A stretch of 64,000 nt of DNA, taken from Stegostoma tigrinum (Eukaryota). The position numbers and the translations under genes were made by a program. The DNA lies in NCBI RefSeq assembly GCF_030684315.1, contig NC_081397.1, positions 4,464,001 through 4,528,000 on the forward strand. Direction: 5' to 3'. Shown piece by piece: positions 24,121 to 51,106 of this stretch (positions within the stretch are counted from its first letter, which is position 1; each line of letters begins with the position of its first letter). The notes below the pieces were generated by a model. It was given only the letters and a program-made list of their open reading frames with translations. It was not told where the DNA came from and ran no database searches.

Positions 24121-24312
24121 AAACTTTAAATGCTGAAATTTGTTCAAACTGGGCAGGTGTGCATTGTGAATGTTGAAAAAAACAAACAAAACTTGTATTT
24201 CCTCAGTGTTGTTTGAACAAATCTCACTGGAAATTGACCTCAACGTGTGTCTGACTCAATCTGCTTTGTGACTGCGGAAAGGATGTTCTCTGCTCTGACA
24301 GCTGTAACATAC

Positions 24313-24394
24313 CTTCTGTTTGTTAGATGCAGCTAGTCACACTTGGCTTTGTGCCAAGGGAATATTACTTTCTCTTAGTCACTCAAGTATTAGG
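24313..24394 (-). other. Exon-like module copy A (82 nt) of the left-arm putative transcript
   Basis: Minus strand: acceptor TCTCTTCTGTCTCCCTCCAG| and donor AAG|GTATGT; homologous to copies at 31.4, 40.1 and 46.6 kb. Confidence 0.5.
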
Positions 24395-27300
24395 CTGGAG
24401 GGAGACAGAAGAGAGCCCTCCTGTAAATCACCATCAGCCAACTTTGATAATATTTCATTGATCAATGCAATGTTCAGTTAATAATCATGACAATATTTCA
24501 TTTCAAGTCAGGAATCTGAACAGAATTAGGTGTTTGATGATACTCTTGCTCTGAGCTGCTTCTTTGTCTTGTGATTTTTCTTTTTGTTAATTCCATACCA
24601 ATTGAGTGAAGTGCAGACACTAAGTGTCCAGATCCACGAATGGGATTACACAATGCGAGTGTGTCTGTGGATATGAGTTTTTGTTTATCTATTCATGTCT
24701 CACACAATCTGAGCCTTTGTTAAATTACTTATGTATTCACACAGCAGAGACTGGCAGGGACCGATGAGATTCTGCCCTGTGTTTATTTGAGAAGTCAAAC
24801 TGTACTTGACCGTGGTTTTCTTTCCCCTTTGTGAATATGAGAATGTTGTTGTCAGTTCTTACCTGATTGTGTGTGATGTGGGAATGTTTGTGTCAGTTTC
24901 TGCAAGGTGAGTATACTTATCCATCTGTGTCAGTTGTTTTCTGCTATCTGAATGTAGGAGAGTAGGCTTCAATCTTTGCTTCTCAGTTTCTGCTATGTCA
25001 ACAGGTGAGCTTGGTTTTTCATCTTTACCTGCAAGTTCCGAGCTTTGAACGTGTGGGTACAATTGTTAACATAATTCTGAATGTTTCTGCTTGTAAAAAT
25101 GCAACCATATTCATCCAATCGTACTTGTCATTTTCAAACAAGTGAATATGAATATCAGACTGATATCTACATTGTCAGTTTCTGTTCTGTAATTGAGTGT
25201 GCTTTTCAGTGTTTAATTAGTTATTAATTTGTATTATTAATTTAAATGGTTAATTTATTTATTAATTATATTATTAATAATATAATTATTATTACTATGC
25301 AGTTATTAATTTGTACCAATTTTTCTTGGTTTACAATGTCACTAGAGAGCTGATCTGTACCTGTCAGTTTCTGCTGAGAGTTTATTTATCAAATTGTTCC
25401 TGTCAGTTTCTGCTCTGTCAATCTGAGAGTGCAGTTATTAATCTATACCTGTCAGTTTCTGCAAGGTGAATGAGGGGGTTCTGTTATGAACATACACCAT
25501 CAGATTCTGCTCAGAGAAGTGAGAGCAGTTATGCTGCCACCATCAACTTTGCTCTGTAAATCTGAGTGCAGTTATTCATCTGCGCTTGTCAGTTTCACGT
25601 TTGTGAATGTGAGTAATTAGTGTTCTCTCCCCAACTGTTTCTTTTTCTTGAATATCAGTTTAGTTATCATCCTGTCCTTGGGGAGGCCAGGGAACTTGGG
25701 GAAATAAATATGGATGTCTTGAAAATAGTCTGCATGACATTAACAGGAGTTGTTAGAGGCAGCAAGAGTAAAAATACAAAGTGGCTAAATCGACAGGACC
25801 CAAACAAGTTTTTGTAGATTTTCAGGATATCAGGATTTTGTGGGAAGCTGTGTTGATAATTTGAACAAATGACATTGTTTTCTTGCTTTCTTGTAATATT
25901 TCGAGGGAAGGATCATCCCATCCCTGTCACATATTGCAATACGAAGTGTGATTATGGTCATCAAATGTGTACACTCAGTTTCTGTTATGTGAATGTGACA
26001 GTGCAGTTATAAATCTCAGTTTCTGCAGTGATAATGAGAGTGTAATTATCAGTCTGTCAGTTTCTGCTATATCCATATGGGTTTAGTTATTATCAGTACA
26101 TGTTAGTTTCTGTCATATGAATGTGACAGTGTCATCAGCCTGCCTCTGACAGTTACTGTACTGAAGGTGCGTGACTGTAGTTACCAAGCTGTAGCTCTCC
26201 ATTACTGCCATGTGAATGAGGGTAGTTGTGCACCTACACCTTGGCTTTCTAATGATCAATGTGTGAGTGTCGTTGTCATTTATATACCTGTTTGGATTTG
26301 CTTGTCAATCTGAGTTTAGTTATCGATCTGTACTTGTCAGATTCTGCTGAGAAAATGTATGATTAGTTATCAAACTGTACCCGTCAGTGTAAACAATGTG
26401 AAATCGGGAGATTTATTATTAATCTGTTCCTGTCAGTTTTTGTGTGGATATGATAGATGTGTTATCAAAAGTTCTGTCAGTAACTACCATGTGAGCATCT
26501 GAGTCTATTTACCGGTCAGTCCCTGTCCGTTTCAGCTCTGTATCCGAGTGTGCAGTTGTTAGTCTGCAACTGGTAGTCTCTGCTACATGACTATTTCAGG
26601 GCATTCATCAAACTTTCCCTATCAGGGAGTGAGTGTGCTATGAATGTGCTTAGCAATTTGGACTTGCCAGTTACGGTATAGAAATGTAAATAACAATTTC
26701 TCCTTGTCAGTTTCTGCTCTATGTGTTAATGAGTGGAGTTAGAAATCTGTACACATGTTTGTACCACACAAATACAGGTACAGATGTGACTCTTTCTCTG
26801 TATGTTTCTGCTACGTGAATATCTAAGCATGGTTATCAATCGGTACATGCCAGCTGCTGCTTTGTGAATCTGTGAATTTAGTTGTCAGTCCATGCCGATC
26901 AGTTTCTGCTTTAAGAATGTATGAGTGCAGTTATCAACCTGTACCTGTCAGTTATTGCTCCATCTATTTGTTTTGTGCAATGGATTGTGTCGAAGCAAAA
27001 GGTTTTGTAACTCCAACAGTGCAGAGTCTAACTGGGAGAAGTTATCAAGGGCTGTTCATCAGGATAACATCAGCTTTTCTGACTGCATTCGTAACATAAT
27101 TCTGTGAGTAATGCTGTGGAATAGACAGATGTGGCATTCCTTTCTTCGAGTCTAAAGGAAAAGGGCAACGAACAAATCAACTGTATTCAGCTGAATGACC
27201 ACGATATCCCTTCTACAGGGAAGGGTATTGGCTAATTCACTTCATTATTCTCATGAATATTACATAACCCTGCTCTGTGGTGTGACGGTGCACGGCAGCA

Positions 27301-28099
27301 GCAATACTCTTATGATGTGCTGTTGTGGGGATGAAGAAAGCAAAAGGACTTGTATTTTCTGTCTTACAGTGGAGAAGATTTAAACTTATTGAACATGGTC
27401 AAACTCTTTGCCAAAAAAATTGACAATTACAAGAGATTTAGTTAAGTGGATCATTCTTCATTGCTTTAAATGGAGATTACATCATTAATGTGAAGAAACA
27501 GCATTCTGTTTTCCTGCTTTTTTATGTAATTTCCTTTGGAGGGGCAAGTGACACAAAACTGTTTAACCTAGTTGCCAAATTCACTTCCATGCTTCCCCAC
27601 CGACGCCACCCCGCCCCCGACCCAAAAAGAAATTTTGCAAGCCAGATGGGAAATATGGTTTCTATTCCTGAAGGTGAACATGTTGAGGATCACGTTATGA
27701 TGAAGTTGGGGTTGTCAAATCTTATACTGCCATGGCACACTTATTGAAATGGAATGCTGGCTGAATGGGATCAGAATTGTCAGGTGCTTGTTTTTGTCTA
27801 CGATCAACCTGATGGGCTCAAAGGTCTTTTTTCTGTCCTGTAGACACCTCCTCTGCTTATATAAAAAAAGCCGTAAACATTTTGTATGTATCCACTTGTT
27901 ACCTGTAGTGTATATGGGTATACATTGTTGTTAGTCTTTGTATGTTATGTATTGATACAATGAGCATATTTGGGACTCAATCTGAATCAGTCAGCAGCTT
28001 TGTGTGTGTGTCTGCATGTGCTCAGTAGTGATTTGCTACTTGCCAGTAACACTTGTCACACGTGGTTGTTGAAACTAGGCAACATGATATATTTCTTAG

Positions 28100-29070
28100 A
28101 GGGGGTAACAAGGTGTAGAGCTCGATGAACAAAGCAGGTCAGGCAGAGGAACAGGAAAGCTGACATTTTGGGACTGTTAGAAATGGGTGAAGAGAAAGGG
28201 ACTCTGCAATAAAGAGAGAGAAGTGAGGAGATGATAATGAAAGGTGGATAAGGACCAGATAGGTGGAGAGAAGATGGACAGTTCAAGGAGGCAGGGCTGG
28301 AGCCAGTAAAGGTAAGTGTAGAGAGGGAGTTTGGATGTGGATTGGTCAGTTGAGGGAAGGTGGAGTGGTCAGGGAGGTAGGGATGATACTAGTTGGCCAG
28401 AGGTGTGGGTGTGTGTTGGTCAGTGAAGTGGGAGGAGCAGATTGGTGAGAGAAAAGATGGACAGGTCAAAGAGGCAGGGACCTGCTGGATGGGTTTGGGG
28501 TGGAGATATTTTGAAGCCCACATTGGGTTGCAGAGCTCTCAAGCGAAATCTGAGGTGCTGTTCGTGCAGTCTTCCGGTGGCAATGTTGTGGCACTGGAGG
28601 CAGCGTGGGATGGATATGTTGTCCAAGGAGTGGAAGGGGGTACTGAAGTGGTTCACAACTGGGAGTTGCAGTCATTTGTCAAGATACGAGCGTAGGTGTT
28701 CGACAGAGCAGTCTCCAAGCCTCTGTTTGGTTTCCCCAAAGTGGAGGCGGCCTCATCGGGAACAGCGGATACAATGCACCACATTAGCGGACATGTAGAT
28801 GAACATCTGTTTGATGTGGAAGGTTTTCTTGGGATGGGGATAAGGGGAGAGATGTTGCGGCAGGTGTTGCACTTCCTGCTGTTGCAGTGAGAAGTGGGGG
28901 TGGGGCTAGTGGGGAGTGTGGAGTGGACGAGGGAGTCAGAGAGAACAATCCCTCTGGAAGGCAGATAAAGGGTGGTGAGGGGAAAAAATAAGTGTCCTTC
29001 GGAGTGGGGTGAGATTGAAGGTGGCAGAAGTGGAGGAGGTTTATGCCTTGAATGCAGAGTTTGATGGAGT
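28100..29070 (-). mobile_element. Degraded Neptune-type Penelope element
   Basis: NHFSTPFHSLDNISI...RLHEQHLRFRLRALQPN. Confidence 0.85.
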
Positions 29071-29106
29071 GATATGTGATGACAAAAGGATATTATCTGA
29101 GTCTTT

Positions 29107-31080
29107 GAGAGACAATGGGAACTGCAGATGTTGGAGAATCCAAGAGAATAAAGTGTGGAGCTGGATGAACACAGCAGGCCAAGCAGCATCTCAGGAGCAC
29201 AACAGCTGATGTTTCGGGCCTAGACCCTTCAGAGAGGGGGATGGGGAGAGGGTTCTGGAATAAATAGGGAGAGAGGTGGAGGCAGACTGAAGATGGAGAG
29301 AAAAGAAGATAGGTGGAGAGGAGAGTATAGGTGGGGAGGTAGGGAGGGGATAAGTCAATCCAGGAAAGATGGACAGGTCAAGGAGGTGGGATGAGGTGGT
29401 GGGTGGGAAATGGAGGTGCGGCTTGAGGTGGGACGAAGTGATGGGTGAGGGGAAGAACAGGTTCGGGAGACAGAGACAGGCTGGGCTGGTTTTGGGATGC
29501 AGTCGGGGGGAGGGGATGAGCTGGGCTGGTTTTGGGATGCAGTGGGGGGAGGGGAGACTTTGAAGCTGGTACAGTCCACATTGATACCATTGGGCTGCAC
29601 AGTTCCCAAACGGAATATGAGTTGCTGTTCCTGCAACCTTCGGGTGGCATCATTGTGCCACTGCAGGAGGCCAGGACGAACATGTCGTCTAAAGAATGGG
29701 AGCGGGAGTTAAAATGGTTCACGACTGGGAGGTGCAGTTGTTCATTGCAAACCGAGCAGAGGCGTTCTGCAAAGCGGTCCCCAAGCCACCGCTTGGTTTC
29801 CCCAATGTACAGGGAGCCAGACCAGGTACAATGGATACAGTATACCACATTGGCAGATGTGCAGGTGACCATCTGCTCAACATGGAAAGCTATTGTGGGG
29901 CCTGGGATGGGGGTGAGGGAGGTGGTGTGGGGGCAAGTGTAGCACTTCCAGCAGTTGCAGGGGAAGGTGCCAGGTGTGGTGGGGTTGGAGGGAAGTGTGG
30001 CATGAACAAGGGAGTCACAGAGCGAGTGATCTCTCCAGAAGGCAGAAGGGTGGGGATGGAAAAATGTCTTGGGTGGTGCGGTCGGATTGTAGATGGCAGA
30101 AGTGTCGGAGGATGATGTGTTGTATCCGGAGGTTGGTGGGGTGGTGTGTGAGAACGAGGGGGATCCTCTGGGGATGGTTGTGGTGGGGTCAGGGTGTGAG
30201 GGATGTGTTGCAGGAAACGTGGGAGACGTGGTCAAGGGCGTTCTCGACCACTGCTTTTTGGGGGGGGGGGGGGGGGGGGGGTGGAGAGAACAGAAGTTGA
30301 GGTCCTTAAAGAACTTGGACATCTGGGATGTGCGGGAGTGGGAGCAGATGCAGCAGAGGTGGAGGAATTGGGAATAGGGGGACGGCATTCTTGCAGGAGG
30401 GTAGGTGTATTCTAGGTAGCTGTGGGAGTTGGTTGGCTTGAATTAGATACCAGTTTCCAGGTGGTTGCCAGAAATGGAAACAGAGGTCCAGGAAGGAGAG
30501 AGATGTATCAGGTGAACTTAAAGTTGGGGTGGAAGGTGTTAGTAAAGTCAATGAACTGTTTGAGCTCCTTGTGGGAGCACAAGGCAGCATCGATACAGTC
30601 AGTCATTGATATAATGGAGGAAGCGGGGTGGGGTGGGGCCAGTGTAGCTGTAAAAGATGGGCTGGTCCACGTATCCTACAAAGAGACAGGAATAGCTTGG
30701 GTCCATGCGGGTGCCCGTGGCCACCCCCTTTGACTGTAGGGAGTGGGAGAAGTTGAAGGAGATGTGGGTGGAGTCACAGACACAGGTGGGAGTTCCTGCA
30801 TCTGGGTGGGTGGGCGGGGGGAATGATGGTGTAGGCAAGGGAGTTGAGATAATTGGAGATCAGTTTGTTGGGGCGGGGTCATGCAGAGGCAATGGGTCAC
30901 CAGGGGCAGTCGGGTTTGTGGATTTTGCAATGAAGCAAAAACAGTTAACATGGCGTTGGGGAAAGATGAGGTTGGAGGCTGTTGGCAGGAGGTTACCTGA
31001 GCGGTTGAGGTTGTGGATGGTCTGGGGGATGATGTTTTGGTGATCAGGACAGGGTCATGATCAAGGGGGTGGTAGGAGGA
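29107..31080 (-). mobile_element. Neptune-type Penelope element: RT C-terminus, GIY-YIG endonuclease and terminal repeat, frameshifted
   Basis: KGVATGTRMDPSYSCLFVGY..FLHYIND (RT); NVVYCIHCTWSGSLYIGETKRWLGDRFAERL (GIY-YIG); terminal repeat at 29107-29240. Confidence 0.92.
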
Positions 31081-31401
31081 GTCTCTCTCTGTCCAGTTTG
31101 AGGCAAAGTACATTTCCTAAATGTAAATTGGATTCAGTTCCTGTTTGAGTACTTTCAACAAAGAGTCACCCGTTAACATTTCAAAGATGTGAATGTTGAT
31201 GGACTATGAATGATGTTAATTGGAACTAGCGGGATGTCAATTGGCAATGGAAACATTACAAAGAGAAACTTGCCTTTTCTCAGTTGGGATTGGGTGGTTG
31301 TTTCCTTGGTCAAGTCTCCGGAAATTGAGCTCAATGTAAGTCTGATTCAATCCGCTCTGACTATGGGAAAGATATTCTCCATTCTGATCACAGGAACGTG
31401 C

Positions 31402-31481
31402 CTGCTGTTAGTTGGAAGCAACTGCACACACTCGGCTTTGTACCAAGGAAATATTGCATCAACTGGTTTCAAGTATTTTGC
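31402..31481 (-). other. Exon-like module copy B (80 nt) of the left-arm putative transcript
   Basis: Minus strand: acceptor TCTTCTGTTTTCCTCCAG| and GC-type donor CAG|GCACGT. Confidence 0.45.
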
Positions 31482-32301
31482 CTGGAGGAAAACAGAAGAG
31501 ATATCTCTCGTAAATCAACATCAGCCAACTTTGACAATATCAAACAGATTAACATATTCAGGTACCAGTTATTAGGATGTTTCTTTTCTAGAACTTCACC
31601 TCCCAAAGCAGCAGAACTCCAAAAGCTTATGATTTTTAATATAAGCCTGTTGGACCACAACATTGTGTCATGAGAGTTGTGTCTTTTCTTTAAAAGGCAT
31701 CAATTTAAACACAAGTCTGACTCAATTCTTACATCGAACTGCTCCTTGTCTGAGTTTTTTTTTAAAATATGAAATTCGATACCAACTGGGCGACATTCAG
31801 AAACTGAACAGTAATTGCACAGCTCCATCTAAGGTGCTACCTGAAGAGGGTGAACTGGTGACACAGCTCATGTAACCAGATCCCAACACACTGACTGTTG
31901 AAGAGAACAACAGCCACTATTTCAAATGTTTTTTTTCCCCGAGACGTGTGATCTGTTAACTCCAATCTGCGTCCTTGACGGGTATTCGCCGCCCCACCCC
32001 CACACCTGGCTCCCGGCAACTCGCAACTAACAGCATGAAACAGCTGCCAAACAGTGAATTGTCAGTGTTTAGAAGTCTAAAAGCTACAAGACTGACCCCC
32101 AGCAGCTTCTTGCCGCTGTGTCTCCCTCAGCAGGCCCACACACAGCCCGAGAAAGGCCTCTCTCTCCCCGCCCCGCGGCCGCTCTCTCTCCAAGTTCCGG
32201 GACCAGTTCCTGCCCCGCTCGGCCTCTTACCAACAGACCCCGGTTCTCCCTGAACTGAGCCCGAATCAATGCCGGTCTCGGAGCCCCCCTCTGTGTCCCA
32301 G

Positions 32302-32510
32302 ACTCACATCTCGATACGCTGCCGGAAGGAGCCTGCTGCTCCCTCGCTTCCCTGGGCGCTGGTCTCTCCATTGCGGTCTGTTTCAAACAAACCTCTTCCA
32401 CTCACTGAGTAAATGCCCCTCAATGACAGCGAAGGGGGAGGGCCTCACGCATGCGCTCGCCTGGTCATCAAAAAGCAACATTGGGGGCCGGGCCAGCCTC
32501 ACGCATGCGC
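32302..32510 (-). promoter_or_regulatory. CpG-rich promoter with two NRF1 motifs and a putative first exon (ATG at 32371, donor GTGAGT at 32307-32302), facing left
   Basis: ACGCATGCGC at 32447-32456 and 32501-32510; GCAATGG start context; 64 nt from ATG to GAT|GTGAGT; inverted near-identical copy at 39064-39272. Confidence 0.6.
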
Positions 32511-33055
32511 TGTTAACCCCATTTTTTAAAAACAAGAGTTTGCAGGCAGCGCGGACCGGACACGGGATCATTGCCTGATCTGTATGTACCAGTCAGGAGG
32601 GAAGCGCGGGGTTTAATACAACCCAGGCAAACTGATCAACCTGCCGGGTAACCGTGGTTAATCAATCTGATCAAACCCGCCGATTTAAACAACTTCAAAG
32701 CGATTAATTACAGAATCCCTTTTTTTTTCGGGGCATGTTTAATTTGTAATTGCAATTGCTGCCTGAAATGCATTTCGCAGGCAAATGGAAGGAATAACCG
32801 TTAAAACATCGCCAGAGATCGTAGCATCAAAGTTAGATAAAATATCATTCCTGGAAGGGTTATACTGCAATATGCGACATTAGTGTCTGGGCAGAATTAC
32901 AAGCCGTGGCAGGAAATAACCAGATGCAGTTCCAGTGACCCTCCCGACATGATTCCATCCTCATTTTCAGTCTCCGCTCTCGGAAATGTGATATTTGAGT
33001 TACTAGAATCAATTCAAGTTTATGCTCTGTCTGCACTCGGAACCGGGACAGGGAT

Positions 33056-33242
33056 AATTTGACTTATAGACGGAGCTGCAGATGCTGGACAATCTGACAG
33101 AAGGTGTAGAGTTGGATGGACAGAGCGAGCCGAGCAGCATCAGAGGAGCAGGAAGAAGGATCTCGGTCCGAAACGTCAGCTTTCCTGCTCCTCTGATGCT
33201 GCTTGGCCTGTTATGTCCAGCCAGCTCTACACCTTGTTATCT
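33056..33242. mobile_element. Fold-back Penelope-terminal-repeat element inserted just downstream of the H1 processing signals
   Basis: CAGGGAT duplicated at 33049-33055 and 33243-33249; the homologous site in the H1 remnant (about 63140) is empty. Confidence 0.75.
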
Positions 33243-33290
33243 CAGGGATCATGTGATCCGGGCTCAGCTCTTTCCTGGAGAGATGTGGGT

Positions 33291-33306
33291 GGCTCTGAGA
33301 AGAGCC
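33291..33306 (-). terminator. Histone 3' stem-loop of H1 with downstream element
   Basis: Minus strand AAA-GGCTCT-TCTC-AGAGCC-ACCCAC, then GGAAAGAGCTG (U7-binding HDE-like). Confidence 0.93.
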
Positions 33307-33342
33307 TTTGGGTTCAGGTGGTGACACGATACACCGACTGCT

Positions 33343-33981
33343 TCATTTCTTTGCTGCTTTCTTGGTCACTTTCGCTTTGGCCTTCGCCTTCGTTCTCACC
33401 GATTTCGGAGCCGGTTTTGAGGCCTTGGGGCTCTTGGTCTTTTTCACCTTCTTCACGGGAGTCTTTTTCTGAGGCGCTGCTTTCTTCGCCGCTTTCTTTG
33501 GCGTTGCTGCCTTCTTGGCGGCCGCTTTCTTTCCTGTTGCTTTCTTGGCTGGGGATTTCTTCGCTGCTACCTTCTTGGCCGTTGTTTTCTTCACGGCTGC
33601 TTTCTTGGCGGCTGCTGCGGGTCTCGCCTTCTTTCCCACTTTTGCCTTGACCTGATTCTTTGCGAGTTTGAAGGAGCCGGAGACGCCCTGGCCCTTCACC
33701 AGAACCAGGGAGCCTTTCGCCAGGCACCTCTTGGTAGCCATCCTGATCTGTGCATTCTGCTTCTCCACATTGATCCCGCTTCTCTGCAGCGCCTTCTTTA
33801 TAGCGGCCAGAGACGTCCCCTTCCGATCGCTGTTCTCCCCGACAATCTTCACAATCCGCTCGCCCAACCCGGGACCGGCTGGCTTTTTCCTGGGGGCCGC
33901 CGCCTTCTTCTTCTTGGGAGCCTTGGGTTTGGTGCTGGCGGAGGCTGGAGGAGCCGTTTCGGCGGCTGCACTGTCGCTCAT
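33343..33981 (-). CDS. H1: Histone H1 (replication-dependent linker histone), 212 aa
   Basis: AAETAP..K-rich N-tail, globular domain RKGTSLAAIKKAL...KGSLVLVKGQGVSGSFKL, K/A/P-rich C-tail with SPKK, TPKK and TPVK motifs; intronless; stem-loop present. Confidence 0.97.
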   Translation of the reverse strand: MSDSAAAETAPPASASTKPKAPKKKKAAAPRKKPAGPGLGERIVKIVGENSDRKGTSLAAIKKALQRSGINVEKQNAQIRMATKRCLAKGSLVLVKGQGVSGSFKLAKNQVKAKVGKKARPAAAAKKAAVKKTTAKKVAAKKSPAKKATGKKAAAKKAATPKKAAKKAAPQKKTPVKKVKKTKSPKASKPAPKSVRTKAKAKAKVTKKAAKK

Positions 33982-34127
33982 GTCGGGAACTCTGCGCTGA
34001 ATCTCTCTCTGTCAGACTGAGCTGGGTCAGCAATGAAGCTGCTGGTGGCGGCACTGAGCAACTTAAAGGCAGCGAGCGGACGGCGCGGAGACAACCTGCC
34101 CTCAGCTCCCTGCTCCTGCTGCCTCTC

Positions 34128-34134
34128 TGTGTTT
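34128..34134 (-). promoter_or_regulatory. H1 box (AAACACA)
   Basis: TGTGTTT on + about 150 nt upstream of the H1 ATG; TATA-like TTTAAG on minus near 34062-34067. Confidence 0.75.
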
Positions 34135-34944
34135 CTCTCTCGGCAGAAACTCTCCAATTCCTCTGCAATTCCGCATCTCCAGAGAGCCAGGTTCGATCGT
34201 TCCTGACCATGACACGGGAAGGTTTGCGGCCAAAAAGTTTTCACTCGAATTGACGGCTCCGTTGTCGAGTTACACGCATTTTGCTGTTGCACTGATCGCG
34301 CTCTCTGAGCTGAGCGCTGGCATTATCCTCACTTTTGGGCTGAAATCTTGAAATCAACAAATACACAGCCTTGAATTCTAGCTTTCGGGTTTAGTGGGGG
34401 AGCAGGTGGATAATTGGAATTGAAAATATTTTCGATCTGCACAAGAGAGATTCGGAAATATCATGATATGAGCGGACAGACAAACACAGTGACGTTAGAC
34501 TAACCCGCCCGCCCTTTTCCCACAGTCTCTCTGATTCAATATTCACATCCACACAGTCACAGGCCAGAAACATTGCCAAATGTAAATGTGGAAGGATATC
34601 ATTTATTTTCCTTTCAGCTTTTGCTCGGATATCAGGGAGTTGTTGGAGATTTTCCCCTCAGTAACTGTTAAAATCTCTGAGGCCGGTGTGCTGGAGATTC
34701 GCTCTTCTCCACATTCAGCTGCAAAAGCCAATCATCTGGTTTGAAGTTCCATTGATCACCCAGATCAGTTTTTTTTTTATTTTCATTCCGGTGACAATAC
34801 TCAACATCGGTTCTGGGAGTAATCAGACATAGAAACACAAATAATGGCAACTTGGCCGAAGCTTTCGGCCCTTCAAACCTCTCCTCCAACTCATCATGAA
34901 AATGGCAGGTCATCTAACTCAATAGCCTGTGTCCGTTTTTCTCT

Positions 34945-35567
34945 CATATGGAGTCGTTCAGCAAGGATGCATAACCTTCAGTCCAACCATAGCATGCCGA
35001 ATATAATGGCAAACTGAACTAGTTCCACCTGCCTGTCCCTGGCCTGTTTCCTTTCAAACCTGTCATATTTACCTACTTATCCAAACGCCGTTTCAAGGCT
35101 GTATTTGTAGACACATGGGCCGTTTCCTCAGAAGTTCATTCCACTTGCAGCCGGCTCTGTGACAATAAAACCCTCGTGTCTTTTGTTTTAATCTCTCTAC
35201 TGTCACTGTAAAAATGTTCACGCCGTTCCTCAATTCCCCCCATCCCAGGCAAAAGACAACTCTCATTAACTCTGTCTCACCCCCTCATTATTTTATGAAC
35301 TTGTATAAGCTGCCTTTCAACATGCCACACTCTAGTGAAAAAAAAACTCCCAGCCTTTCCATCCTTCCTTTATAACTCGAAAACTACATACTCGGCAATT
35401 ACTGGTGAGCCTCTTTTGAACCATCCCCACCTTAATACTGTCCTTCCTCCAACTGGCCAACTGGCCTCACCCAATGCCCTGTGTAACGTCAATGTGATTG
35501 TCGCCTCCTAAACTCAAAGGACTGAGCAGTGAAGGAAAGCGTGCCAAACACCTTCTTCACAATCCTG
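34945..35567 (-). mobile_element. Degraded CR1 3' end, interrupted by the Neptune element at 35568
   Basis: IVKKVFGTLSFTAQSFEFRR (CR1 VKKAxGxLxFI motif). Confidence 0.7.
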
Positions 35568-36615
35568 AGATAATGGGAACTGCAGATGCTGGAGAATTCC
35601 AAGATAATAAAATGTGAGGCTGGATGAACACAGCAGGCCAAGCAGCATCTCAGGAGCACAAAACCTAGACCCTTCATCAGAGAGGGGGATGGGGAGAGGG
35701 AACTGGAATAAATAGGGAGAGAGGGGGAGGCGGACCGAAGATGGAGAGTAAAGAAGATAGGTGGAGAGAGTATAGGTGGGGAGGTAGGGAGGGGATAGGT
35801 AAGTCCAGGGAAGACGGACAGGTCAAGGAGATGGGATGAGGTTAGTAGGTAGATGGGGGTGCGGCTTGGGGTGGGAGGAAGGGATGGGTGAGAGGAAGAA
35901 CCGGTTAGGGAGGCAGAGACAGGTTGGACTGGTTTTGGGATGCAGTGGGTCGGGGGGGGAAGAGCTGGGCTGGCTGTGTGGTGCAGTGGGGGGAGGGGAC
36001 GAACTGGGCTGGTTTAGGGATGCAGTAGGGGAAGGGGAGATTTTGAAACTGGTGAAGTCCACATTGATACCATATGGCTACAGGGTTCCCAGGCAGAATA
36101 TGAGTTGTTGTTCCTGCAACCTTCGGGTGGCATCACTGTGGCACTGCAGGAGGCCCATGATGGACATGTCATCTAGAGAATGGGAGGGGGAGTGGAAATG
36201 GTTTGCGACTGGGAGGTGCAGTTGTTTGTTGCGAACTGAGCGGAGGTGTTCTGCAAAGTGATCCCCAAGCCTCCGCTTGGTTTGCCCAATGTAGAGGAAG
36301 CCGCACCGGGTACCGGTGGATGCAGTATACCGCATTGGCAGATGTGCAGGTGAACCTCTGCTTAATGTGGAAAGTCATCTTGGGGCCTGGGATAGGGGTG
36401 AGGGAGGAGGTGTGGGGACAAGTGTAGCATTTCCTGCGGTGCAGGGCAAAGTGCCGGGTGTGGTGGGATTGGACAAGCGAGTCACGGAGAGAGTGGTCTC
36501 TCCAGAAGGCATGCAAGGGTGGGGTGGGAAAAATGTCTTTGGTGGTGGAGTCATATTGTCAATGGCAGAAGTGTCGGAGGATGACGCGTTGTACTGGAGG
36601 TTGGTGAGGTGGGAA
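35568..36615 (-). mobile_element. Neptune-type Penelope 3' half with terminal repeat
   Basis: CGFLYIGQTKRRLGDHFAEHLRSVRNKQLHLPVANHF; terminal GAGATAATGGGAACTGCAGATGCTGG. Confidence 0.92.
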
Positions 36616-36616
36616 T

Positions 36617-37660
36617 GAACATAGAACAATACAGTGCAGAACAGGCCCTTCGGTCCTCAATATTGGCCCGACCTGCGAACTAATCTAAACCCCTCCCCCT
36701 ACACTATCCCATCATTATTCATATGCTTATCCAAGGACTGTTTAAATGCCCCGAATGTGACTGAGTTAACTACATTGGCAGGCAGGGTGTTCCATGCCCT
36801 TACCACTCTCTGAGTAAAGACCCTGCCTCTGACATCTGTCTTAAATCTATCACTCTTCAATTTGTAGCTATGCCCCCTTGTACAAACTGAAGTCATCATC
36901 CTCGGAAAAAGGCTTTCACTATCTAATCCACTGATCATCTTGTACGTCTGTATTAAATCACCTCTTAGCCTTCTTCTCTCCAATGAGAACAGACCCTAGT
37001 CCCTCAGCCTTTCTTCATAGGGCCTGCGCTCCAGACCAGACATCTTCCTGGTCAATCTCCTTTGTACCTTTTCCAATGCTTCCACAACCTTCCTCTAATG
37101 GGGGGACCAGAACTGCACACAATATTCCAAATGAGGCCGCACGAGCATTTTGTACAATTGCATCATGACATCATGGCTCCAGAACTCAATCCCTCTCCCA
37201 ATAAAACCTATCACACCGTAAGCTTTCTTAACCGCACTATCAACCTGGGTGGCAACTTTCAGGGATCTATATACATGGACAACAAGATCCCTCTGCACAT
37301 CCACAATACCAAGAATCTTTCCATTGATCCAGTATTCTACCTTGCTATTATTCCTCCCAAAGTCAATCACCTCACATTTAGCCATATTAAACTCCATTTG
37401 CCAACTTTCGGCCCAATTCTGCAGTTTATCCAAGTCTCCCTGCAACCTGCAACATCCTTCCACACTCTCCACCACTCCACCGACTTCAGAGTCATCTGCA
37501 AACTTACTAACCCATCCATCAATGACTGCATCCAAGTCATTAACAAAAATGACAAACGGCAGTGGTCCCAACACAGATCTTTGAGGCACACCACCAATGA
37601 CATGGCTCCAGGCTGAATATTTTCCATCAACCACAACTCGTTGCCTTCTTACAGAAAGCC
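36617..37660 (-). mobile_element. Relatively young 5'-truncated CR1 LINE (RT C-terminus and 3' UTR)
   Basis: GVPQRSVLGPLPFVIFVNDLD...SKFADDS...RPHLEYCVQFWSPH; ERRRLRGDLIQTYK. Confidence 0.95.
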
Positions 37661-38737
37661 AGAGGACTTTGGGATTCGCTGGGGGCAATTATTGTGAAGG
37701 CGTGGTGTGAGGGATGAGGTACGGAAAATGCGGGAGACACGGTCAACAGTGTTCTCGATCGCTGCGGGGGTGATGTTGCGGCCCTTGAAGAACGAGGACA
37801 TCTGGGATGTGCAGGAGTGGATTGCTTCATCCTGGGAGCAGATGCGCTAGAGGCAAAGGAATTGGGAATAGGGGATGGAATTTTTGCAGGAAGGTTGGTG
37901 GTAGGAGGAGTATACCTGTTAGCTGTGGGGGTCGGTGGGCTTGAAATGGACATCGGTTTATAGGTGGTCGCCTGAGATGGAGACAGAAAGGTCCAGGAAG
38001 GTAAGGGATGTGTTTTGGAGATGGTCCAGGTGAACTTGAGGTTGGGGTGGAAGGTGTTGGTGAAATGGATGAACTGTTTGAGCTCCTCTTGTGAGCATGA
38101 GGCAGCGCCGATACATTCATCAATGTGACGAAAGAAGAGGTGGGGTTTGGGGCCAGTGGAGCTGCGGAAGAGGGACTGTTCTACATAAGCCACAAAGAGG
38201 CAGGCATAGCTTGGGCCCATTCCTCAGACGACATGTCCATCCTGGGCATCTTGCAGTGCCATAATGATGCCACCCATGGGTTGCATGAACATCAATTAAT
38301 ATTCCGCTTGGGAACCCTGCAGCCCAATGGCATCAATGTGGATTTTACCAGCTTCAAAATCTCCGCTCCCCCCACTGCATCAAAAAACCAGCCCAGCTCG
38401 TACCACCCTCCCTAACCTGTTCTTCCTCTCACCTATCCCCTCCTCCCACCTCAAGCTGCACCTCCGTTTCCGACCTACGAACCTCGTTCCGCCCCCTTGA
38501 CCTGTCCGTCCTCCCCGGACTGACCGATCTCTTTCCTACCTCCCAACCCATACTCTCCTCTGCACCTCTCTTCTCTGTCCACCTTCGGTCCACCTCCCCC
38601 TCTCTCCGTATTTATTTCAGAATCCTCTCCCCCGCCCCATTTTCGACTGAAGCGCCTCGGCCCGAAACATCAGCTTTTTGTGTTCCTAAAATGCTGCTTG
38701 GCCTGCTGTGTTCATCCAGCCCCACACTTTGTTATCA
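37660..38737. mobile_element. Neptune-type Penelope element with internal inversion (RT on minus 37660-38220; 3' end on plus 38221-38737)
   Basis: MGPSYACLFVAYVEQ..FFRHIDEC on minus, joined at 38220 to plus-strand QLIFRLGTLQPNGINVDF and a terminal repeat. Confidence 0.88.
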
Positions 38738-39063
38738 TAAGATTAGGCGTGATGTTTTGAATTAGGGAGCACATCTAACGGGCCGAATGGCCGTTAGCTA
38801 CTCCACTTGCCACCAGAATGTGAGAGCCGGAGGGAGAGAGTTATTAACATGGTCCGGGAAACGATCGAAACTCATCGTTCAGCTTCTGTTTCACGCTCTT
38901 TTTTTGCGAATTGGTATTGAATCGTGGGAAAGAAAAGTCATTATATACAAACGGTCTCTGCTCTTTCCCCCACAGCCCCCAGGTGCTTTGCTGAAACTGG
39001 GTGTAAAGTGAATTGGGGAAATGATCAATTGATTTCTGTCTCTGGGAATTATTTGGAAAAGTA

Positions 39064-39272
39064 GCGCATGCGCGATGTCACCCCCCCCGAAAGAAGTGCA
39101 TTTGGCTGTTTAGAGGAGCGCATGCGTGAGGCCCTCCCCCTGCGCTGCCATTGAGGGGCATTCACTCAGTGAGTGGAAGAGGTTTGTTTGAAACAGACCG
39201 CAATGGAGAGACCAGCGCCCAGGGAAGCGAGGGAGCAGCAGACTCCTTGCGGCAGCGCATCGAGATGTGAGT
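39064..39272 (+). promoter_or_regulatory. CpG-rich promoter with two NRF1 motifs and a putative first exon (ATG at 39203, donor GTGAGT at 39267-39272), facing right
   Basis: GCGCATGCGC 39064-39073 and GCGCATGCGT 39118-39127; GCAATGG context; 64 nt from ATG to GAT|GTGAGT. Confidence 0.6.
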
Positions 39273-40049
39273 CTGGGACACAGAGGGAGGCTCCGAGACC
39301 GGCATTGATTCGGGCTCAGTTCAGGGAGAACCGGGGGCTGTTGGTAAGAGGCCGAGCTGGGCAGGAGCTGGTCCCGGAACTTGGAGAGAGAGCGGCCTGG
39401 GGGCGGGGAGAGAGAGGCCTTTCTCGGGCTGTGTGTGGGCCTGCTGAGGGAGACACAGCGGCGAGAAGCTGCTGGGGGTCAGTCTTGTGGTTTTCACATC
39501 CCCAACCACTGATGGAAATTCATTGTTTGGCTTCTGTTTCATGCTGTTTGTTGACATTGTGCAGTCAAAGTCGAAACACGGACAAGACTAGAAATAATAA
39601 GAACCCTGTAAAGGACATGGATTAGAGTCACTATATTCTACAGTTAGTGCATTGGGATTTGGTAACATGAACTGCGCAGACATTGCAGTGGCTGTGGGTA
39701 GCACCTCACGTGGAGCTGTACAATTATCGTTCCATTTCCAGATTTTACTCAATTGCTATCGAAGGAGATAGGTTTTTCTTAAAAGTCCTGAGACAAGGCG
39801 CAGCTGCAAGTTAAAATGGAATCAGACCTGCATTTGAATTCATGACTTTAAAGAAAAGGCAGATGTCTCATGACACTGTCATCATCTCTCAGGTTCTTTT
39901 GAAATGACAGACTTTTGGAGCACTGTTCTTCAGAAGAAGTAAAAGAAACATCCTAATAACTATTAACTGAGTATTACAGTAATCTTTTTGATATTGTAAA
40001 ACTTAATTGATGTTGATTTACAGGAGTAAACACTTCTGTCTTCCCCCAG

Positions 40050-40131
40050 GAAAACACTTGCAGGAACAAGACAATGTTATGTGTGCTTGGTACGAAGCCA
40101 AGGATGACCAGCTCCTTCGAACAACCAACAG
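40050..40131 (+). other. Exon-like module copy C (82 nt) of the right-arm putative transcript
   Basis: Acceptor CTTCTGTCTTCCCCCAG| and donor CAG|GTATGT. Confidence 0.55.
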
Positions 40132-40974
40132 GTATGTTACCATGTCCAAGCAGAGGACACCCTTTCCACAGGCACAGAGCAAATTGAGTCAGAAATACAA
40201 TCAACTCAATTTCTGGTGACATGCATGCAAGCCAACAGTCAAACACAACCAACAAAATAAAAATAGTTTTCCCCCCCCCCACCTCTGTTTTCTCAACACA
40301 CCACCCTGTTTCAAAAGAAGATCATTTGTAGCCTATTGGCATTTACGGCATTTTTGAAAGTGAATAGACTGAATTTTCATCTGAAATAGACACAAAAGAA
40401 CGGCAGTAAATCTACATTTAGGGTAAGCATGTTTTCAAATTTACTGTCAAGGTGAAGAAATAGTTCATGCTGTTACATAGTTACACCAACCAAACACATA
40501 GCAGATAATGAGAACAGATATGGAAGAAAACATTGACGTTATCATCAGTAACTGAGCAGGACAGCATTCATCTTTTGTCAAATGGATGTCCCAGGCACAG
40601 CCAGAACAGTTAATTAATGTGCCTTCCAAATGCACATCCTGTCCCAAAGCCTGACGTAGAATGCCAGCAGAGTGTATGCACACTTTTTGGCACACGCACT
40701 CCACTGAGTTGTAAATATATACACTATCTCCATCACACGTGTCACACCATCTAACAGCCATGAAGATCATGTATATTGCAAACTTCACAGTGTAACATTG
40801 AAGATGATTTCCACTCACGGATTTCAGGTCAGAGAGCTAGCCTTTCAAGATAAGAGACAAATAGAAAAGAATGTGAGCTAAATACTTCAATCCTCGTGTG
40901 GACATGCACTCCCGTGTTCATAATGTGAATATCACTCATTCACTGTATTTGGGGAAAAAACGACAAATTTTGTG

Positions 40975-41760
40975 GAGTTCAGTTCCGGCAAATGTGAGGT
41001 GATGCATTTTGAAAGATCCACTTCAAGTGCGAACTATGTGGTAAATGGAAAAGCCCTGGCAAAAATTGATGCTCAGAGAGATCTGGGTGTTCAGGTGCAT
41101 TGCACCCTGAAGGTGCAACGCGGGTCGATAGAGTGGTCAAGAAGACATACTGCATTCTTTCCTTCATCAGATGGGTCATTTAGTGCAAGAGTTGGCAGGT
41201 CCTGTTACAGTTTTATAGGGCTTTGGTTTGAACACATTTGGAATATTGTTTTCAGTTCAGGTCACCACATTACCAAAAGGATGTTGATGCTTTGGAAAAG
41301 GCGCAGAGGAGGTTCACCAGGATGTTGCCTGGTACGGAGGGTGCTCGCGATGAAGAGAGTTTGAGTAGATTACGATTATTTACATTAGAAAGATGGAGGT
41401 TGAGGGGAGACTTGATTGAGGCCGACACAGTCATGAGATGAATTGACGGGTTGGATAGCAAGAAGCTTTTTCCAAGAGTGTGGAACTCTATGACGACGCG
41501 TCATGATTTCAAGGTGAGGGGGCAAAAGTTTAAGGATGATATGCATGGAAAATTCTTTACACAGAAGGCTTTGGGTGCCTGGAATGTGTTGCCAGCGGAG
41601 GTTGTAGAGGAGTGCATTATAGTGTCCCTTAATATCTATGTAGACAGATAGGTGACTGGACAGGGAGCAGAGGGATACACATCCTTGGAAAATAGGTGAC
41701 AGGTTTAGATAGAGGATATGGATCAGCACAGGCTTGGAGGGCCAAAGAGCCTGTTCCTCT
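40975..41760 (+). mobile_element. CR1 LINE 3' fragment
   Basis: EFSSGKCEVMHF; EYCFQFRSPHYQKDVDALEKAQRRFTRMLPG; LERWRLRGDLIE. Confidence 0.92.
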
Positions 41761-44700
41761 CAGCCGAATTTTTTTTTTTGTTCTTTGACACTGAATTCCC
41801 AAGAAGTAGTCCAGGAAATATATCGAACAAGAGATTAATTTCACCTCTCTGTGTGTCACCATCTCATCGTAGAGAGATAATTAAAGTATCATTTCCTTTT
41901 GTACAAACTGGAGAAATTGCATGTCAGGATAAGTTTCGAATTGAAATTGACATTGACATTGCATTTCTTTGCATAAAACTACAAACTGAATAGTGAAAAC
42001 CATCTGATACACTTCTACTGAATATAAACTTTGCTATTAAACAGACCAGTAGGAAATCAAGTAGTGACCTGAAATGATACAGAGAATAAACCTACATTCA
42101 AATAGATAACCTAGATTGTTGACTGTACAATTAAGAATGTCTCATACAGTGAGCTTGCAACAACAAATGAACATTAAACTCTATATGTGTCCAGACCAGA
42201 GACAGAGCAAGCCGATATAAGACAGAAAACCTACCCTAGAAATTATACAGGGAGACAATGATAAATGCATTCACAAACCAGATAGCGTCAGGCATAGCCT
42301 AATAACTCATCTCTCAGATTTACACGTCAGGATCTGACGGGGCCAAATGGGTAAAAACACTTGCACAGCCAGAGAGAAGAAACTGACAGGCACGTATTGA
42401 TAACGGCGCACTCATATTCACAGATCAGAAAATGACAGGGACAGAAAGATAATTACACACACATTCAGACTACAAAAACTGGCAGGTACAGGCTGATAAA
42501 TACATGCACACATGACAGGAAAGCAAAAGCATAAGCATATGTAGATTGATAACTACATTTGCATATTCACAGACAAATTTGACAGGGACATATTTGTAAC
42601 ACTTTCACATTCACGAAAGAGCAATTGATGGATATAGGTTGATATCTAAACTCACATATTTCGCAGCAGAAACTGAGAGGGACAGTTTGATGATTACGCT
42701 CATATCTTCACATGACAGCAATCAACAAGTACGAATCGATGATTACCACTCACACACAAATATTCATAGACGTCTGCAGCACAGGAAACAGTCCTTTCTC
42801 TCACTGAATCTGCACTGTTTAGAAACAACCAGCCGACAATTCTACATCAATTCAGCCAGTATTCAAATTCCATGAATGTGCCATGTTGGCAGAGGAAGTA
42901 TCATCCTCACTTTTATCAGTTGTCAATTTCTTCAAGCGTGATCAGATTTTTTTTATTCTATATTAAGCAAGAGGACTTTATAATCAGAGACCTTTTGTTT
43001 TCAAAATAGCTTAAATTTTGTTCAAATAGCTCTGTGTTCCTCTTGACAATCCACCTGAATTTCTACTTAAAACACAAGAAAGCTTCATGCCGTTTTTTTC
43101 AAACAAGCAATATCACAATATAACTGTCCTCACTTATATTTTGCAAAGATTGGTCAACAGTGTTTATTCTTCAGTAAATTCAGTTTGACGGTTCCAGTTG
43201 TGCCCACTGAATGACAGAAAACAAAAGTTCAACACCGAGCATGTTAATGTCCGTGCCATAAAACAAATTCGAAGTAAGAAAACTAATTTTCTTTCCTGCA
43301 CAAGCAACATTGTGGTCAGTCAGCCGCAATGCAGTTGATTTGTTCATTGCACTTCCTCTTTGGCAATAACATACTAAATTAACATCTTTACTTTAGCAGC
43401 ATTCCAAGACTTGTGTCACTATGTAATGTTGAATAATATTAATCTCATCCTGAAAATATCCTTTGATATCACCACAGCGGTTAGACTCTGCAGTGTATCC
43501 TTGGCAAAGGTCCATTGCTTCTCTGTCCTCAACTCTGAAGAAAAGCACACACTCATTTCAGTTGCAATGCCTTGCATTTTCACTTGCTTATAAATGCTGG
43601 AGGCACAAACAACTGAAGAACACAGGCTGTTTCACATTTGCGAAAAAAGAGATGAACCAAAAACTCTGTCCTCTGCCATGGTGGTAATTGGCTCTCCAGT
43701 TTACAAGAAATACTTAATCTGCTCAGTAACGCAATACAGGAAGATAGAAATAGGATCAATTGAGTGTATCTGTCAGTCTTGTTTCATAACAGCAGCTCTT
43801 GTGCCAATGCACAGTAGGTACAGAATAACTTAGAAAGCGTGGAGATGCTGCCAGGTTAGTAGATACCCAGGCAAAAACAAAAGAAAATGCCATTTCTCTT
43901 AAATATCACATGGGTGGGAGAGCTCCCCTTTCATTACGCATTAATAGGACAGGGTAAGAGCCAAGTACTTCAATGCCAGTATGTGAATACTTTCCTTGAG
44001 GATTAAGTATGAGGTATCAGCTTGGCATAAAGTAAATTCGTAATGTTCACGACATCAGAAAATACTGAATCGATTGCATGATCAATGATGAATTATAATG
44101 AAATAGCTGAAGAAGTAAATTGAAATCCAGATTAAATATGCCTCCAAATATCACACCATGTCTTAGATTTGGACATGTAACTAGTGCATCAATTTCCTTT
44201 GTTGAAACTGAAGGAAATATATAGTAGGCCAAGTTTAAAATGAAATAAACATTACAATTACCAAAGGTCTGTTTCCCAGATGTACTTTGACAATATTGCT
44301 GCACTCTCATATTCACAAAGCAGAAACCGATCAGAAGAAACTCTCAGTAACACTCCCAAGCCGCATGAGGCATAAAATGGCATAACAAGGCACTTATATT
44401 CACAGAGTAGAATCTGATAGGGGGAAATAACAATTATATTTCCATATTTAAATCACAGAAACTGATTGGAAAAGTTTTACAACTGCACTTCAACATTCAC
44501 ACTGCAGGTAATGACAGGGACAGATTGATAACAATGTCCGTATATGCACATAGCCAGGAATGATAGGTCGAAATAGATAACTGTGTTCTCATATTCTCGG
44601 AGAGGAAAGCATTACAAATTCATAACTACATTTATATATTCACATCACAAAAACTGATAGTTGCAGATGAATAACTACATTCTCAGGTTCCCAGCGCAGA

Positions 44701-44939
44701 CGTGGACAGATACAGATTGAAATTTGCACTCAAATATTCACGTTGCATGTTCACACATCATTATCAACAGATTAATTACAAAACTCACATCTGTATAACA
44801 CAAATAGACACTGATTGCTGTGTGAAGGTGCAATTGTATTTTTCAATCAGTCCCTGTCAGTTTTCACAATGTGGATGTGTGATTTTAGTTATCAATCAAT
44901 ACCTGTCAGTGAATGCCACGTGAATGTGTGAGGATAGTG

Positions 44940-46100
44940 TAATGCACGTTAACGACATGGATTTTAGTAAGACATTTGATAAAGTACCATGCAGCAGATG
45001 AATCAGAAATGGAAAGGCTTTTGGGATACGGAGCAATTTGCTAAATTGGAAGCAAAGTTTGCTTAGCAACAGGAATCAAATGGTCAATGGCTGCCCTTGT
45101 AAACCGAAAGCTGTTTCAAGTGGTGTTTCTCACAGCTCAGTGTTGGGACTTATGCTGTTTGTTTTATATGATAACAACTTGGACTTGAACACGGGGATAC
45201 AATTGGGAAATTTTCAGCCAGCACAAAAATTTAACAGTGTACTGGTAGTGCAGAGGATAGCTGTCAGCTCCAAAATGATATAGAAGTTTTGGTGGAAGGG
45301 GCAGATGAGTGGCATATGGAGTTCAACTCTGATAAATGTGAGGTAATGCATTTCAGGAGGTGCAAGGACACAAAATAGGAATACATGAGGTGGTGTGGAA
45401 ATTGTACGTAAAGTGAGTGGTTTGGTGTGCAAGTGAAATGGAGTATGAAAATAGCAGTACAGGTGGATAAGATTGTGAAACTTGGTATGTAGAATGCTGT
45501 CGTTTATTGGCAGAGGTATACTACACAAAAGTAGGGCTGTAACGATGAAATTATGTAAGACACTGGTGAGGCTGGAACTGATGTATTGTGCGCCACGATG
45601 GTCACCACATTACAGGACAACGTTATTGCTCTGGATATATTGCAGAGAACATTTACTGGAATGTTGCTAGGGCTGGAGAGTTATAGCTATGAGGATTGAT
45701 TGTAGAGGTTGGAGCTATATTATTTTGAACAGTGAAAGCTGGGAGTGCCATTATTGAGGCAAATGGGATGGGCAGTGATAGAGTCGACAGGGGGAATCTG
45801 TTTCCCTTGGCATTGGGTTTAAAAACCATTGGGTGTAGATGAAGTGAAGTGGCAGGACGATGAGAGATGATGGGAGGAAAACCATTTTTATGAGAGGGTG
45901 CTTATCTCAAATACGTTTCGTGAGTTGCTGATAGCAGAGATTGTCAACTCTTGTAAGAACATATCTGGACCTCCACATTAAGTCTGCAAGCTGCAGGGCT
46001 ATGGGATGTATGCAAGAAGATCGGATTTTATGATGGCCATTTTGGGGTGTTTGGGTCAGCATGGATATAATGAGCCAAATGGCCACCTTCTGTGCTGTAT
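44940..46100 (+). mobile_element. Old CR1 LINE RT fragment
   Basis: MDFSKTFDKVP; VSSGVSHSSVLGLMLFVLY; MKLCKTLVRLELMYCAPRWSPHY. Confidence 0.85.
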
Positions 46101-46534
46101 AATTTTAATTGATCAATAGTTCCTGATCATTCTGTCCCTGTCAGCCTCTGCTGTGCAATACATGAATAATTACCAAAGACCTAGAGGGACACATTGATAA
46201 CTACACTCACACATTCACCAAGTAGCAACTGACATGAATAGATCAATAACTAAACTCGCATCCACTGACAAGCTTCCATTGGGTGGTTCCAGTCATGGAG
46301 CTGTACAGGTATCATTTACTTTCAGGAGCTCATTCAAATGGTGTTGAAGTTTTTAGAAATGATCAGACAAGGAGCAGCTCAGGGCAAGATTGGATCAAGA
46401 CCCATAGTTATGTTAGAATTCCTAGTAATAATATATCCAAATGATTAATAACTAAATGTTGTGTTGATCAGTTAAACATTGTCAAACCCAATTGATGTTG
46501 CTTTACACGAACTATCTCTTCTGTCATCCCACAG

Positions 46535-46618
46535 AAAAAAACACTTGAAGGACCAAGACAAAGTAAGATTTCTTCAGTGCAGAGGCAAGTGTGAGCAGAT
46601 CCTTCTGATAAACAGCAG
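46535..46618 (+). other. Exon-like module copy D (84 nt), donor apparently inactivated
   Basis: Acceptor TCTCTTCTGTCATCCCACAG|; donor position reads CAG|GGATGT. Confidence 0.4.
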
Positions 46619-51078: not shown

Positions 51079-51106
51079 GACGTTTCGGGCCGAGACCCTT
51101 CATCAG
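51079..51106 (-). ncRNA. Minimal type I hammerhead ribozyme core
   Basis: Minus strand CTGATGA-AGGGTCTCGGCCC-GAAACGTC-AGC. Confidence 0.7.

What the first reader, a model, noticed from the sequence alone, without database searches (positions are those of the whole stretch)
24313..46618. Mirror-image pair of NRF1-driven, spliced, apparently non-coding transcription units facing outward from the H1 gene
Seen: two inverted copies of a ~450-bp CpG-rich block (about 32020-32470 and 39110-39560, roughly 90% identical by eye). Each has two NRF1 palindromes (GCGCATGCG), an ATG in GCAATGG context and a GTGAGT donor exactly 64 nt later. Downstream on the same strand each arm has two copies of an 80-84-nt module bounded by a pyrimidine tract plus CAG and a donor (GTATGT in A and C, GCACGT in B, dead GGATGT in D). 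Splicing exon 1 to the nearest module gives only 21 aa (right, T|GA stop) or 28 aa (left, MERPAPREAREQQAPSGSVSRCKILETS). No long coding exon was found in either arm. Inference: a duplicated family of lncRNA, small-RNA-host or micropeptide genes inside the histone cluster, or the 5' leaders of genes whose coding exons were lost or lie outside the window.
Basis: partly seen in the sequence, partly recalled or inferred. Interest (0 to 1): 0.72.

Follow-up and report, generated by a model that had tools for sequence, protein, structure and literature searches.

The report
Multicopy non-coding genes among shark histones
The two mirror-image blocks beside this shark histone H1 gene are two of over a hundred near-identical gene starts scattered through the histone gene cluster, which likely make spliced RNAs that code for no protein; their use is unproven because no RNA reads could be examined.

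Summary
The 416-bp inverted blocks (93% identical), NRF1-type palindromes, ATG and donor, and four 80-84-nt modules are as described. They belong to a family of roughly 130 promoter cassettes concentrated in the histone-cluster contigs. Each heads an old duplicated arm of module exons plus a cluster-specific 49-bp repeat in the same orientation. The cassette is homogenised between arms (96-98%) whose flanks are unrelated, which points to gene conversion. Its CpGs escape decay, and a second NRF1 site persists in divergent flanks (18 of 23 copies). The module acceptor AG is invariant (51 of 51 copies), but there is no codon signal and 28 of 51 copies carry stops or frameshifts. Bamboo-shark gene models join the same exon-1 region to modules. 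No zinc-finger exon, Rfam family, conserved fold or dispersed-transposon pattern was found. Best reading: an undescribed multicopy spliced lncRNA family amplified with the histone genes, likely acting through transcription and splicing rather than its sequence. Transcription in this species is untested.

The parts
39097..39512 (+). Right promoter/exon-1 cassette (CpG-rich, homogenised among copies)
32062..32477 (-). Left promoter/exon-1 cassette
39064..39072 (+). Distal NRF1-type palindrome, outside the homogenised block
39118..39126 (+). Proximal NRF1-type palindrome
32502..32510 (-). Distal NRF1-type palindrome, left arm
32448..32456 (-). Proximal NRF1-type palindrome, left arm
39203..39266 (+). 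ATG to predicted exon-1 end (GTGAGT donor follows); 21 codons without coding constraint
32308..32371 (-). ATG to predicted exon-1 end, left arm
40050..40131 (+). Module exon, 82 nt, AG / GTATGT
46535..46618 (+). Module exon, 84 nt, donor GGATGT in this copy (GT in 7 of 9 members of its subfamily)
31402..31481 (-). Module exon, 80 nt, weak GC donor
24313..24394 (-). Module exon, 82 nt, AG / GTATGT
42262..52980 (+). Degenerate 49-bp repeat in seven patches (57 sense units, 3 inverted), interrupted by LINE/Penelope-like pieces
22523..26974 (-). Degenerate 49-bp repeat patches of the left arm (31 sense units, 1 inverted)
33346..33981 (-). Histone H1 gene between the cassettes; 3' stem-loop at 33266-33311
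56449..56829 (+). H2B gene, first histone gene downstream of and co-oriented with the right arm; this copy lacks the AG found 11 nt before the ATG in 10 of 13 H2B copies

Best explanation
These are two members of a family of over a hundred gene-start cassettes in the shark histone cluster that likely act as unmethylated NRF1-type promoters and would drive spliced RNAs with no protein-coding role. Shown: copy number and confinement to histone-cluster contigs, arm architecture (cassette, module exons, co-oriented 49-bp repeat), homogenisation of the cassette across arms with unrelated flanks, CpG retention, motif retention, invariant acceptor, and absence of coding signal. Inferred: NRF1 binds the paired palindromes and keeps the cassette unmethylated in the germline; Pol II transcribes outward and splices exon 1 to one or more modules; ectopic gene conversion homogenises the cassette; whole units spread by segmental duplication with the histone genes. 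What is selected is most likely the act of transcription and splicing (open chromatin between histone genes), not the RNA sequence.
For: Family: 158 exact hits of a cassette 15-mer against 25 for the reversed control; 70 of the first 100 listed lie on C56, including 17 triplets with an outward-facing pair. The 49-mer core has 27 of 27 hits on C56, control 0. Conversion: cassette 96-98% identical between left, right and third arms of one region whose upstream flanks are at background (50-56%, random about 53%), while the same arm type in another region is only 86-87% in the cassette but 81-82% in the flank. Methylation proxy: divergence at CpG sites 0-2.4% (group 1) and 8-10% (group 2) in promoter and exon 1, like H1 (2.4% and 8.2%), against 9-41% and 33-49% in the downstream arm. 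Motifs: proximal palindrome exact in 20 of 23 copies, distal in 18 of 23 at 44-70 nt spacing across dissimilar spacers. Splicing: AG in 51 of 51 modules with 0 changes on the tree, one of 4 invariant dinucleotides of 264 and 2 of 23 AGs; donor +5 G invariant. Non-coding: changes per codon position 2.73/2.77/2.69; 28 of 51 copies with internal stops or frameshifts; exon-1 variants 4 synonymous, 14 non-synonymous, neutral expectation 25% synonymous. Cross-genus: Chiloscyllium models XP_072422816.1 (isoform X2), GCC17773.1 and GCC21716.1 join the exon-1 region to a module at one shared point, in two different frames, and some join module to module.
Against: Transcription in this species is not shown. 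The donor dinucleotide is not more conserved than background (GT 39, GC 8, AT 2, GG 2 of 51; empirical p 0.6), and the exon (2.70 changes per site) is barely more conserved than the intron behind it (2.84). No A>G strand asymmetry in the right arm (134 vs 108, ratio 1.11, p 0.44). CpG counts are small and copies are related, so one search is not a set of independent trials. The Chiloscyllium models lack the GTGAGT donor and appear to splice about 48 nt further on, where this species has no GT; this is read from proteins only. Two C62 copies have lost both palindromes. The chromatin role has no direct support.
Confidence: 0.58

Rival explanations
1. Functionless relic: an old gene remnant hitchhikes with histone-cluster amplification. 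The cassette stays unmethylated and converted only because it binds NRF1 in an open locus, and any transcripts are noise.
For: Arms diverge about as fast as neighbouring transposon pieces; weak donor conservation and dead donors; no conserved RNA structure; some copies lost both NRF1 sites; conversion alone explains the cassette identity.
Against: The acceptor is invariant over a tree of length 4.0; the distal NRF1 site is kept outside the converted block; homologous junctions appear in another genus's gene models.
Confidence: 0.18
2. Far-upstream alternative leaders for spliced, polyadenylated H2B or H2A mRNAs; direct splicing of exon 1 to an AG 11 nt before the H2B ATG would be in frame and add 25 residues.
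For: The arm upstream of H1 runs into a co-oriented H2B, and the arm downstream of H1 into a co-oriented H2A, in most mapped units; 10 of 13 H2B copies have that AG behind a pyrimidine-rich stretch.
Against: This window's H2B lacks the AG; the window's left arm and the post-H4 arms have no histone gene downstream in the DNA fetched, yet most keep the cassette; co-orientation descends from one or two duplications; no histone-fused module protein among the hits; exon-1 codons are unconstrained.
Confidence: 0.1
3. Germline small-RNA precursor (piRNA-cluster-like) or repeat-scaffold lncRNA in which the 49-bp arrays are the payload.
For: The 49-bp repeat is cluster-specific and strand-coherent with every arm; germline-unmethylated promoter.
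Against: The arrays are about as divergent as adjacent DNA (non-CpG 5-7% against 6-12%); the 99% identity first seen extends over adjacent transposon DNA and is a conversion tract; no repeat position exceeds about 80% conservation; no precursor-like hairpin in modules or arrays.
Confidence: 0.1
4. Micropeptide genes, 5' leaders of zinc-finger genes, or a transposon.
For: Exon 1 and the module are in compatible phase and several module copies are open.
Against: No codon signal; no Pfam or PDB match; no cassette or module homolog next to zinc-finger genes in 100 kb of C55 and 100 kb of the C56 end; not dispersed.
Confidence: 0.04

Closest known systems
Multi-exon lincRNAs under splice-related constraint (Schuler et al. 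2014, PMC4245815; abstract and outline read)
   Same: Constraint sits at splice signals, not codons or folding; the authors propose splice-chromatin coupling affecting neighbours.
   Different: Here about 130 copies with repeated exons, embedded among replication-dependent histone genes; expression not shown.
BGW element of mammalian BEX/WEX/GASP genes (Winter and Ponting 2005, PMC1274310; abstract and outline read)
   Same: A GC-rich 5' element homogenised by gene conversion independently of its divergent downstream sequence.
   Different: BGW heads protein-coding genes (more than 20); here no coding exon was found and no sequence relationship was tested or claimed.
NRF1-type CpG-island promoters (motif assignment in PMC3575792, passages read)
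   Same: GCGCATGCG core in pairs, CpG retention, early donor.
   Different: Binding and start sites are untested; the motif often lacks the tenth base of the full palindrome.
Repeated-exon small-RNA hosts such as C19MC and SNHG14/SNORD115-116 (recalled, no call)
   Same: Short repeated non-coding exons under one promoter.
   Different: No conserved intronic hairpin, snoRNA box structure or Rfam hit.
Newt histone clusters interspersed with a transcribed satellite (recalled; search found no paper)
   Same: A cluster-specific tandem repeat lies between histone genes.
   Different: Here the repeat is short, degenerate and sits behind its own predicted promoter and exons.

Membership tests
Spliced lncRNA gene | Transcribed and spliced RNA over 200 nt | not testable with these tools
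   No RNA holder listed; only indirect support from Chiloscyllium gene models
Spliced lncRNA gene | No conserved protein-coding frame | tested here: met
Spliced lncRNA gene | Splice signals under constraint | tested here: inconclusive
   Acceptor invariant 51 of 51 (empirical p 0.015); donor GT not above background
NRF1-type CpG-island promoter | NRF1 motif retained | tested here: met
   20 of 23 proximal, 18 of 23 distal
NRF1-type CpG-island promoter | Germline-unmethylated CpGs | tested here: met
   Indirect only: no CpG hypermutability
NRF1-type CpG-island promoter | NRF1 occupancy and start site | not testable with these tools
   Needs ChIP and CAGE
Gene-converted 5' cassette (BGW-like) | Cassette groups by neighbourhood while flanks group by arm type | tested here: met
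   Identity matrices and trees
miRNA/snoRNA host gene | Conserved intronic structured RNA | tested here: not met
   Rfam; hairpin scan; SCI at most 0.17 in 14 windows
C2H2 zinc-finger gene leader | Downstream zinc-finger exon or homology to ZNF 5' ends | tested here: not met
   200 kb of ZNF-bearing DNA sampled, not all clusters
Transposable element | Dispersed insertion across the genome | tested here: not met
   only isolated fragments on C1, C2, C43; no repeat library available
piRNA cluster | Produces 1U 24-32-nt RNAs in gonad | not testable with these tools
   No small-RNA data

The most novel reading that the evidence does not exclude
A shark-lineage lncRNA family co-amplified over a hundredfold with the replication-dependent histone genes, whose NRF1 promoters and 49-nt-repeat RNAs organise the histone locus or feed germline piRNAs, and which in some copies splices into H2B to give an N-terminally extended histone.
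Probability: 0.13. Interest if true: 0.75.

Novelty: new variant of a known kind. Interest (0 to 1): 0.4.

Why it matters
If transcribed, a vertebrate histone cluster, normally made of intronless genes, would be interleaved with over a hundred spliced non-coding genes whose promoters evolve in concert with the histone genes. That gives a natural test of whether lncRNA transcription and splicing, rather than the RNA product, is what selection keeps. It also explains a set of spurious 'uncharacterized proteins' in bamboo-shark annotations. If not transcribed, it remains a clear case of gene conversion confined to a CpG-island cassette.

Tried and rejected
RNA evidence: no RNA holder listed. Three of the four listed runs were laid on 38800-47800; they cover introns evenly and none of the 15 joints shown (155 more not shown) matches a predicted junction, so they behave as genomic DNA and say nothing on expression. 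Relic coding exon: suggested by open frames, rejected. Pfam, PDB and ESM Atlas: nothing usable. Exon-1 ORF protein search found nothing but also missed the known homolog P0002, so it is uninformative. Selection on the 49-bp arrays: suggested, not upheld. Idea that the last exon of XP_072422816.1 comes from the 49-mer: no good match. snoRNA or miRNA in module introns: not found. Transcription-coupled strand asymmetry: inconclusive. Outlier hits on C1, C2 and C43 are isolated fragments without histone genes in the DNA fetched; one C43 and one C2 15-mer site had no cassette. Alignment A1 had one row out of frame and was not used. The bacterial promoter scan is irrelevant. tRNA scan: none. Literature searches found no description of this family; the library lacks most subscription papers. 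One search did not retrieve the paper on how the chiPu models were built.
Full report
Observation. The inverted blocks are 32062-32477 and 39097-39512 (416 nt, 93%), inside a longer 72.5% homology reaching past the first modules. Palindromes, ATG, donor, the four modules and the 21- and 28-residue splice products were confirmed by script. Rfam finds only three histone stem-loops in the window.

It is a family. The window is G000:C56:4464001-4528000, a 15.6-Mb contig. DNA searches gave 188 candidates for the cassette, 168 for module A and 275 for the 46.5-kb module; of the 40 scored in each, 40, 39 and 40 lie on C56. A cassette 15-mer has 158 exact hits against 25 for its control, so about 130 are real; 70 of the 100 listed are on C56 and 58 were not listed. 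Between 0.3 and 5.35 Mb these form 17 triplets, each with an outward-facing pair. A second histone cluster on C62 has five cassettes in 140 kb. Isolated fragments occur on C1, C2 and C43. Genomic contigs from three runs of one sample show about six- to sevenfold higher summed depth on the cassette than on its flanks (not a copy number).

Architecture. Each arm runs cassette, module, patches of a degenerate 49-bp repeat, further modules and more repeat. The window has 58 plus and 34 minus units, 0 in 5 shuffles, with 88 of 92 in the sense of their arm; a 19-nt core occurs 27 times, all on C56. Three arm positions recur: upstream of H1 leading to H2B, downstream of H1 leading to H2A or nothing, and after H4 leading to no histone gene in the DNA fetched. 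Several H1 genes have only one adjacent arm, so the mirror image is a property of one repeat unit.

The cassette behaves like a promoter under concerted evolution. Among 15 copies, left, right and third arms of the window's region are 96-98% identical in the cassette, at background upstream and 53-69% downstream, whereas same-type arms from other regions match better in the flanks (78-92% upstream) than different-type neighbours do. Purifying selection alone would not group cassettes by neighbourhood; ectopic gene conversion would (inference). CpG sites in promoter and exon 1 diverge no faster than other sites, as in H1, whereas downstream they diverge several-fold faster (8 paralogous units, few sites, related copies). 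The distal palindrome lies outside the converted block yet is exact in 18 of 23 copies across dissimilar spacers. PMC3575792 assigns this motif to NRF1 (passages).

The module behaves like a non-coding exon. In 51 full-length copies the acceptor AG never changes; the donor is GT 39, GC 8, AT 2, GG 2, not above background, although +5 G is invariant. The three codon positions change equally, and 28 of 51 copies are broken internally (partial hits were dropped, 3 of 50). Exon-1 codon variants are neutral-like, 4 synonymous of 18. No conserved structure was found.

Other species. Profile searches returned 2 of 2 and 10 of 10 hits from Chiloscyllium; of 14 hits, 12 are Chiloscyllium and 2 long repetitive proteins (P0010, P0011) were not looked up. 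All are uncharacterised or hypothetical models with unrelated tails, and their similarity runs through the flanking introns, so the homology is at DNA level. Three models join the exon-1 region to a module at one point about 48 nt beyond this species' donor, in two frames, and the RefSeq model is labelled isoform X2. From recall, such models usually rest on RNA alignments; I could not verify this. This is indirect evidence of splicing in a relative and suggests donor turnover.

Results against. No RNA could be examined. Strand asymmetry is absent for A>G. Exon and adjacent intron are nearly equally conserved, dead donors exist, and two C62 cassettes lost both palindromes. The arms overall evolve near the rate of neighbouring transposon DNA.

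Mechanism. Most likely (0.58): NRF1-bound, unmethylated cassettes fire Pol II outward from the histone genes; transcripts splice through repeated 82-nt exons; selection acts on promoter motifs and acceptors; conversion homogenises the cassette; segmental duplication multiplies the units. This matches the splice-centred constraint described for human lincRNAs (PMC4245815, abstract) and the converted BGW 5' element (PMC1274310, abstract). Rivals: functionless relic (0.18), distant leader for H2B/H2A (0.10), piRNA or repeat scaffold (0.10), coding, ZNF leader or transposon (0.04).

Novelty. Eight literature searches found no description; a shark genome preprint mentions histone clusters only with tRNA loci (10.1101/2025.06.08.657570, passages; its supplements were not seen). 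Earlier scan notes on other copies reach similar readings and are not independent support. Verdict: real, undescribed, a variant of known kinds, function unproven; interest 0.4.

Noticed in passing
G000:C56 4437902-4464234 and 4559738-4594753 (flanks of the window): Several single-exon seven-transmembrane receptor ORFs, GPR139-like by recall, flank the histone unit; not run against Pfam.
   Followed up: no
window 18100-22450: 16-bp and 33-bp degenerate satellites where other units have an H2A gene after the left arm.
   Followed up: no
window 23706-23795 (-): Long single hairpin (-36.3 kcal/mol, 29 pairs) inside an apparent insertion behind the 24.3-kb module; likely transposon-derived.
   Followed up: no
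window about 58880 (H2A promoter): The window's H2A has GTAGAAG where most other H2A copies have GTATAAG at the TATA position; possibly a weakened promoter.
   Followed up: no
window 39600-53000: A>C is rarer than T>G on the sense strand (53 vs 82, p 0.002, one of six tests); unexplained.
   Followed up: no
window 28100-31100, 49060-52400, 40920-41750, 45100-45900: Penelope-like and CR1-like fragments inside the arms appear to lie in the sense of each arm; few independent insertions.
   Followed up: no
window 63242-63287: Isolated 3' fragment of an H1 gene next to the third cassette beyond the window.
   Followed up: partly
G000:C62 430001-570000: The histone cluster on C62 is itself arranged as a large inverted duplication of arms and core histone genes.
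   Followed up: partly
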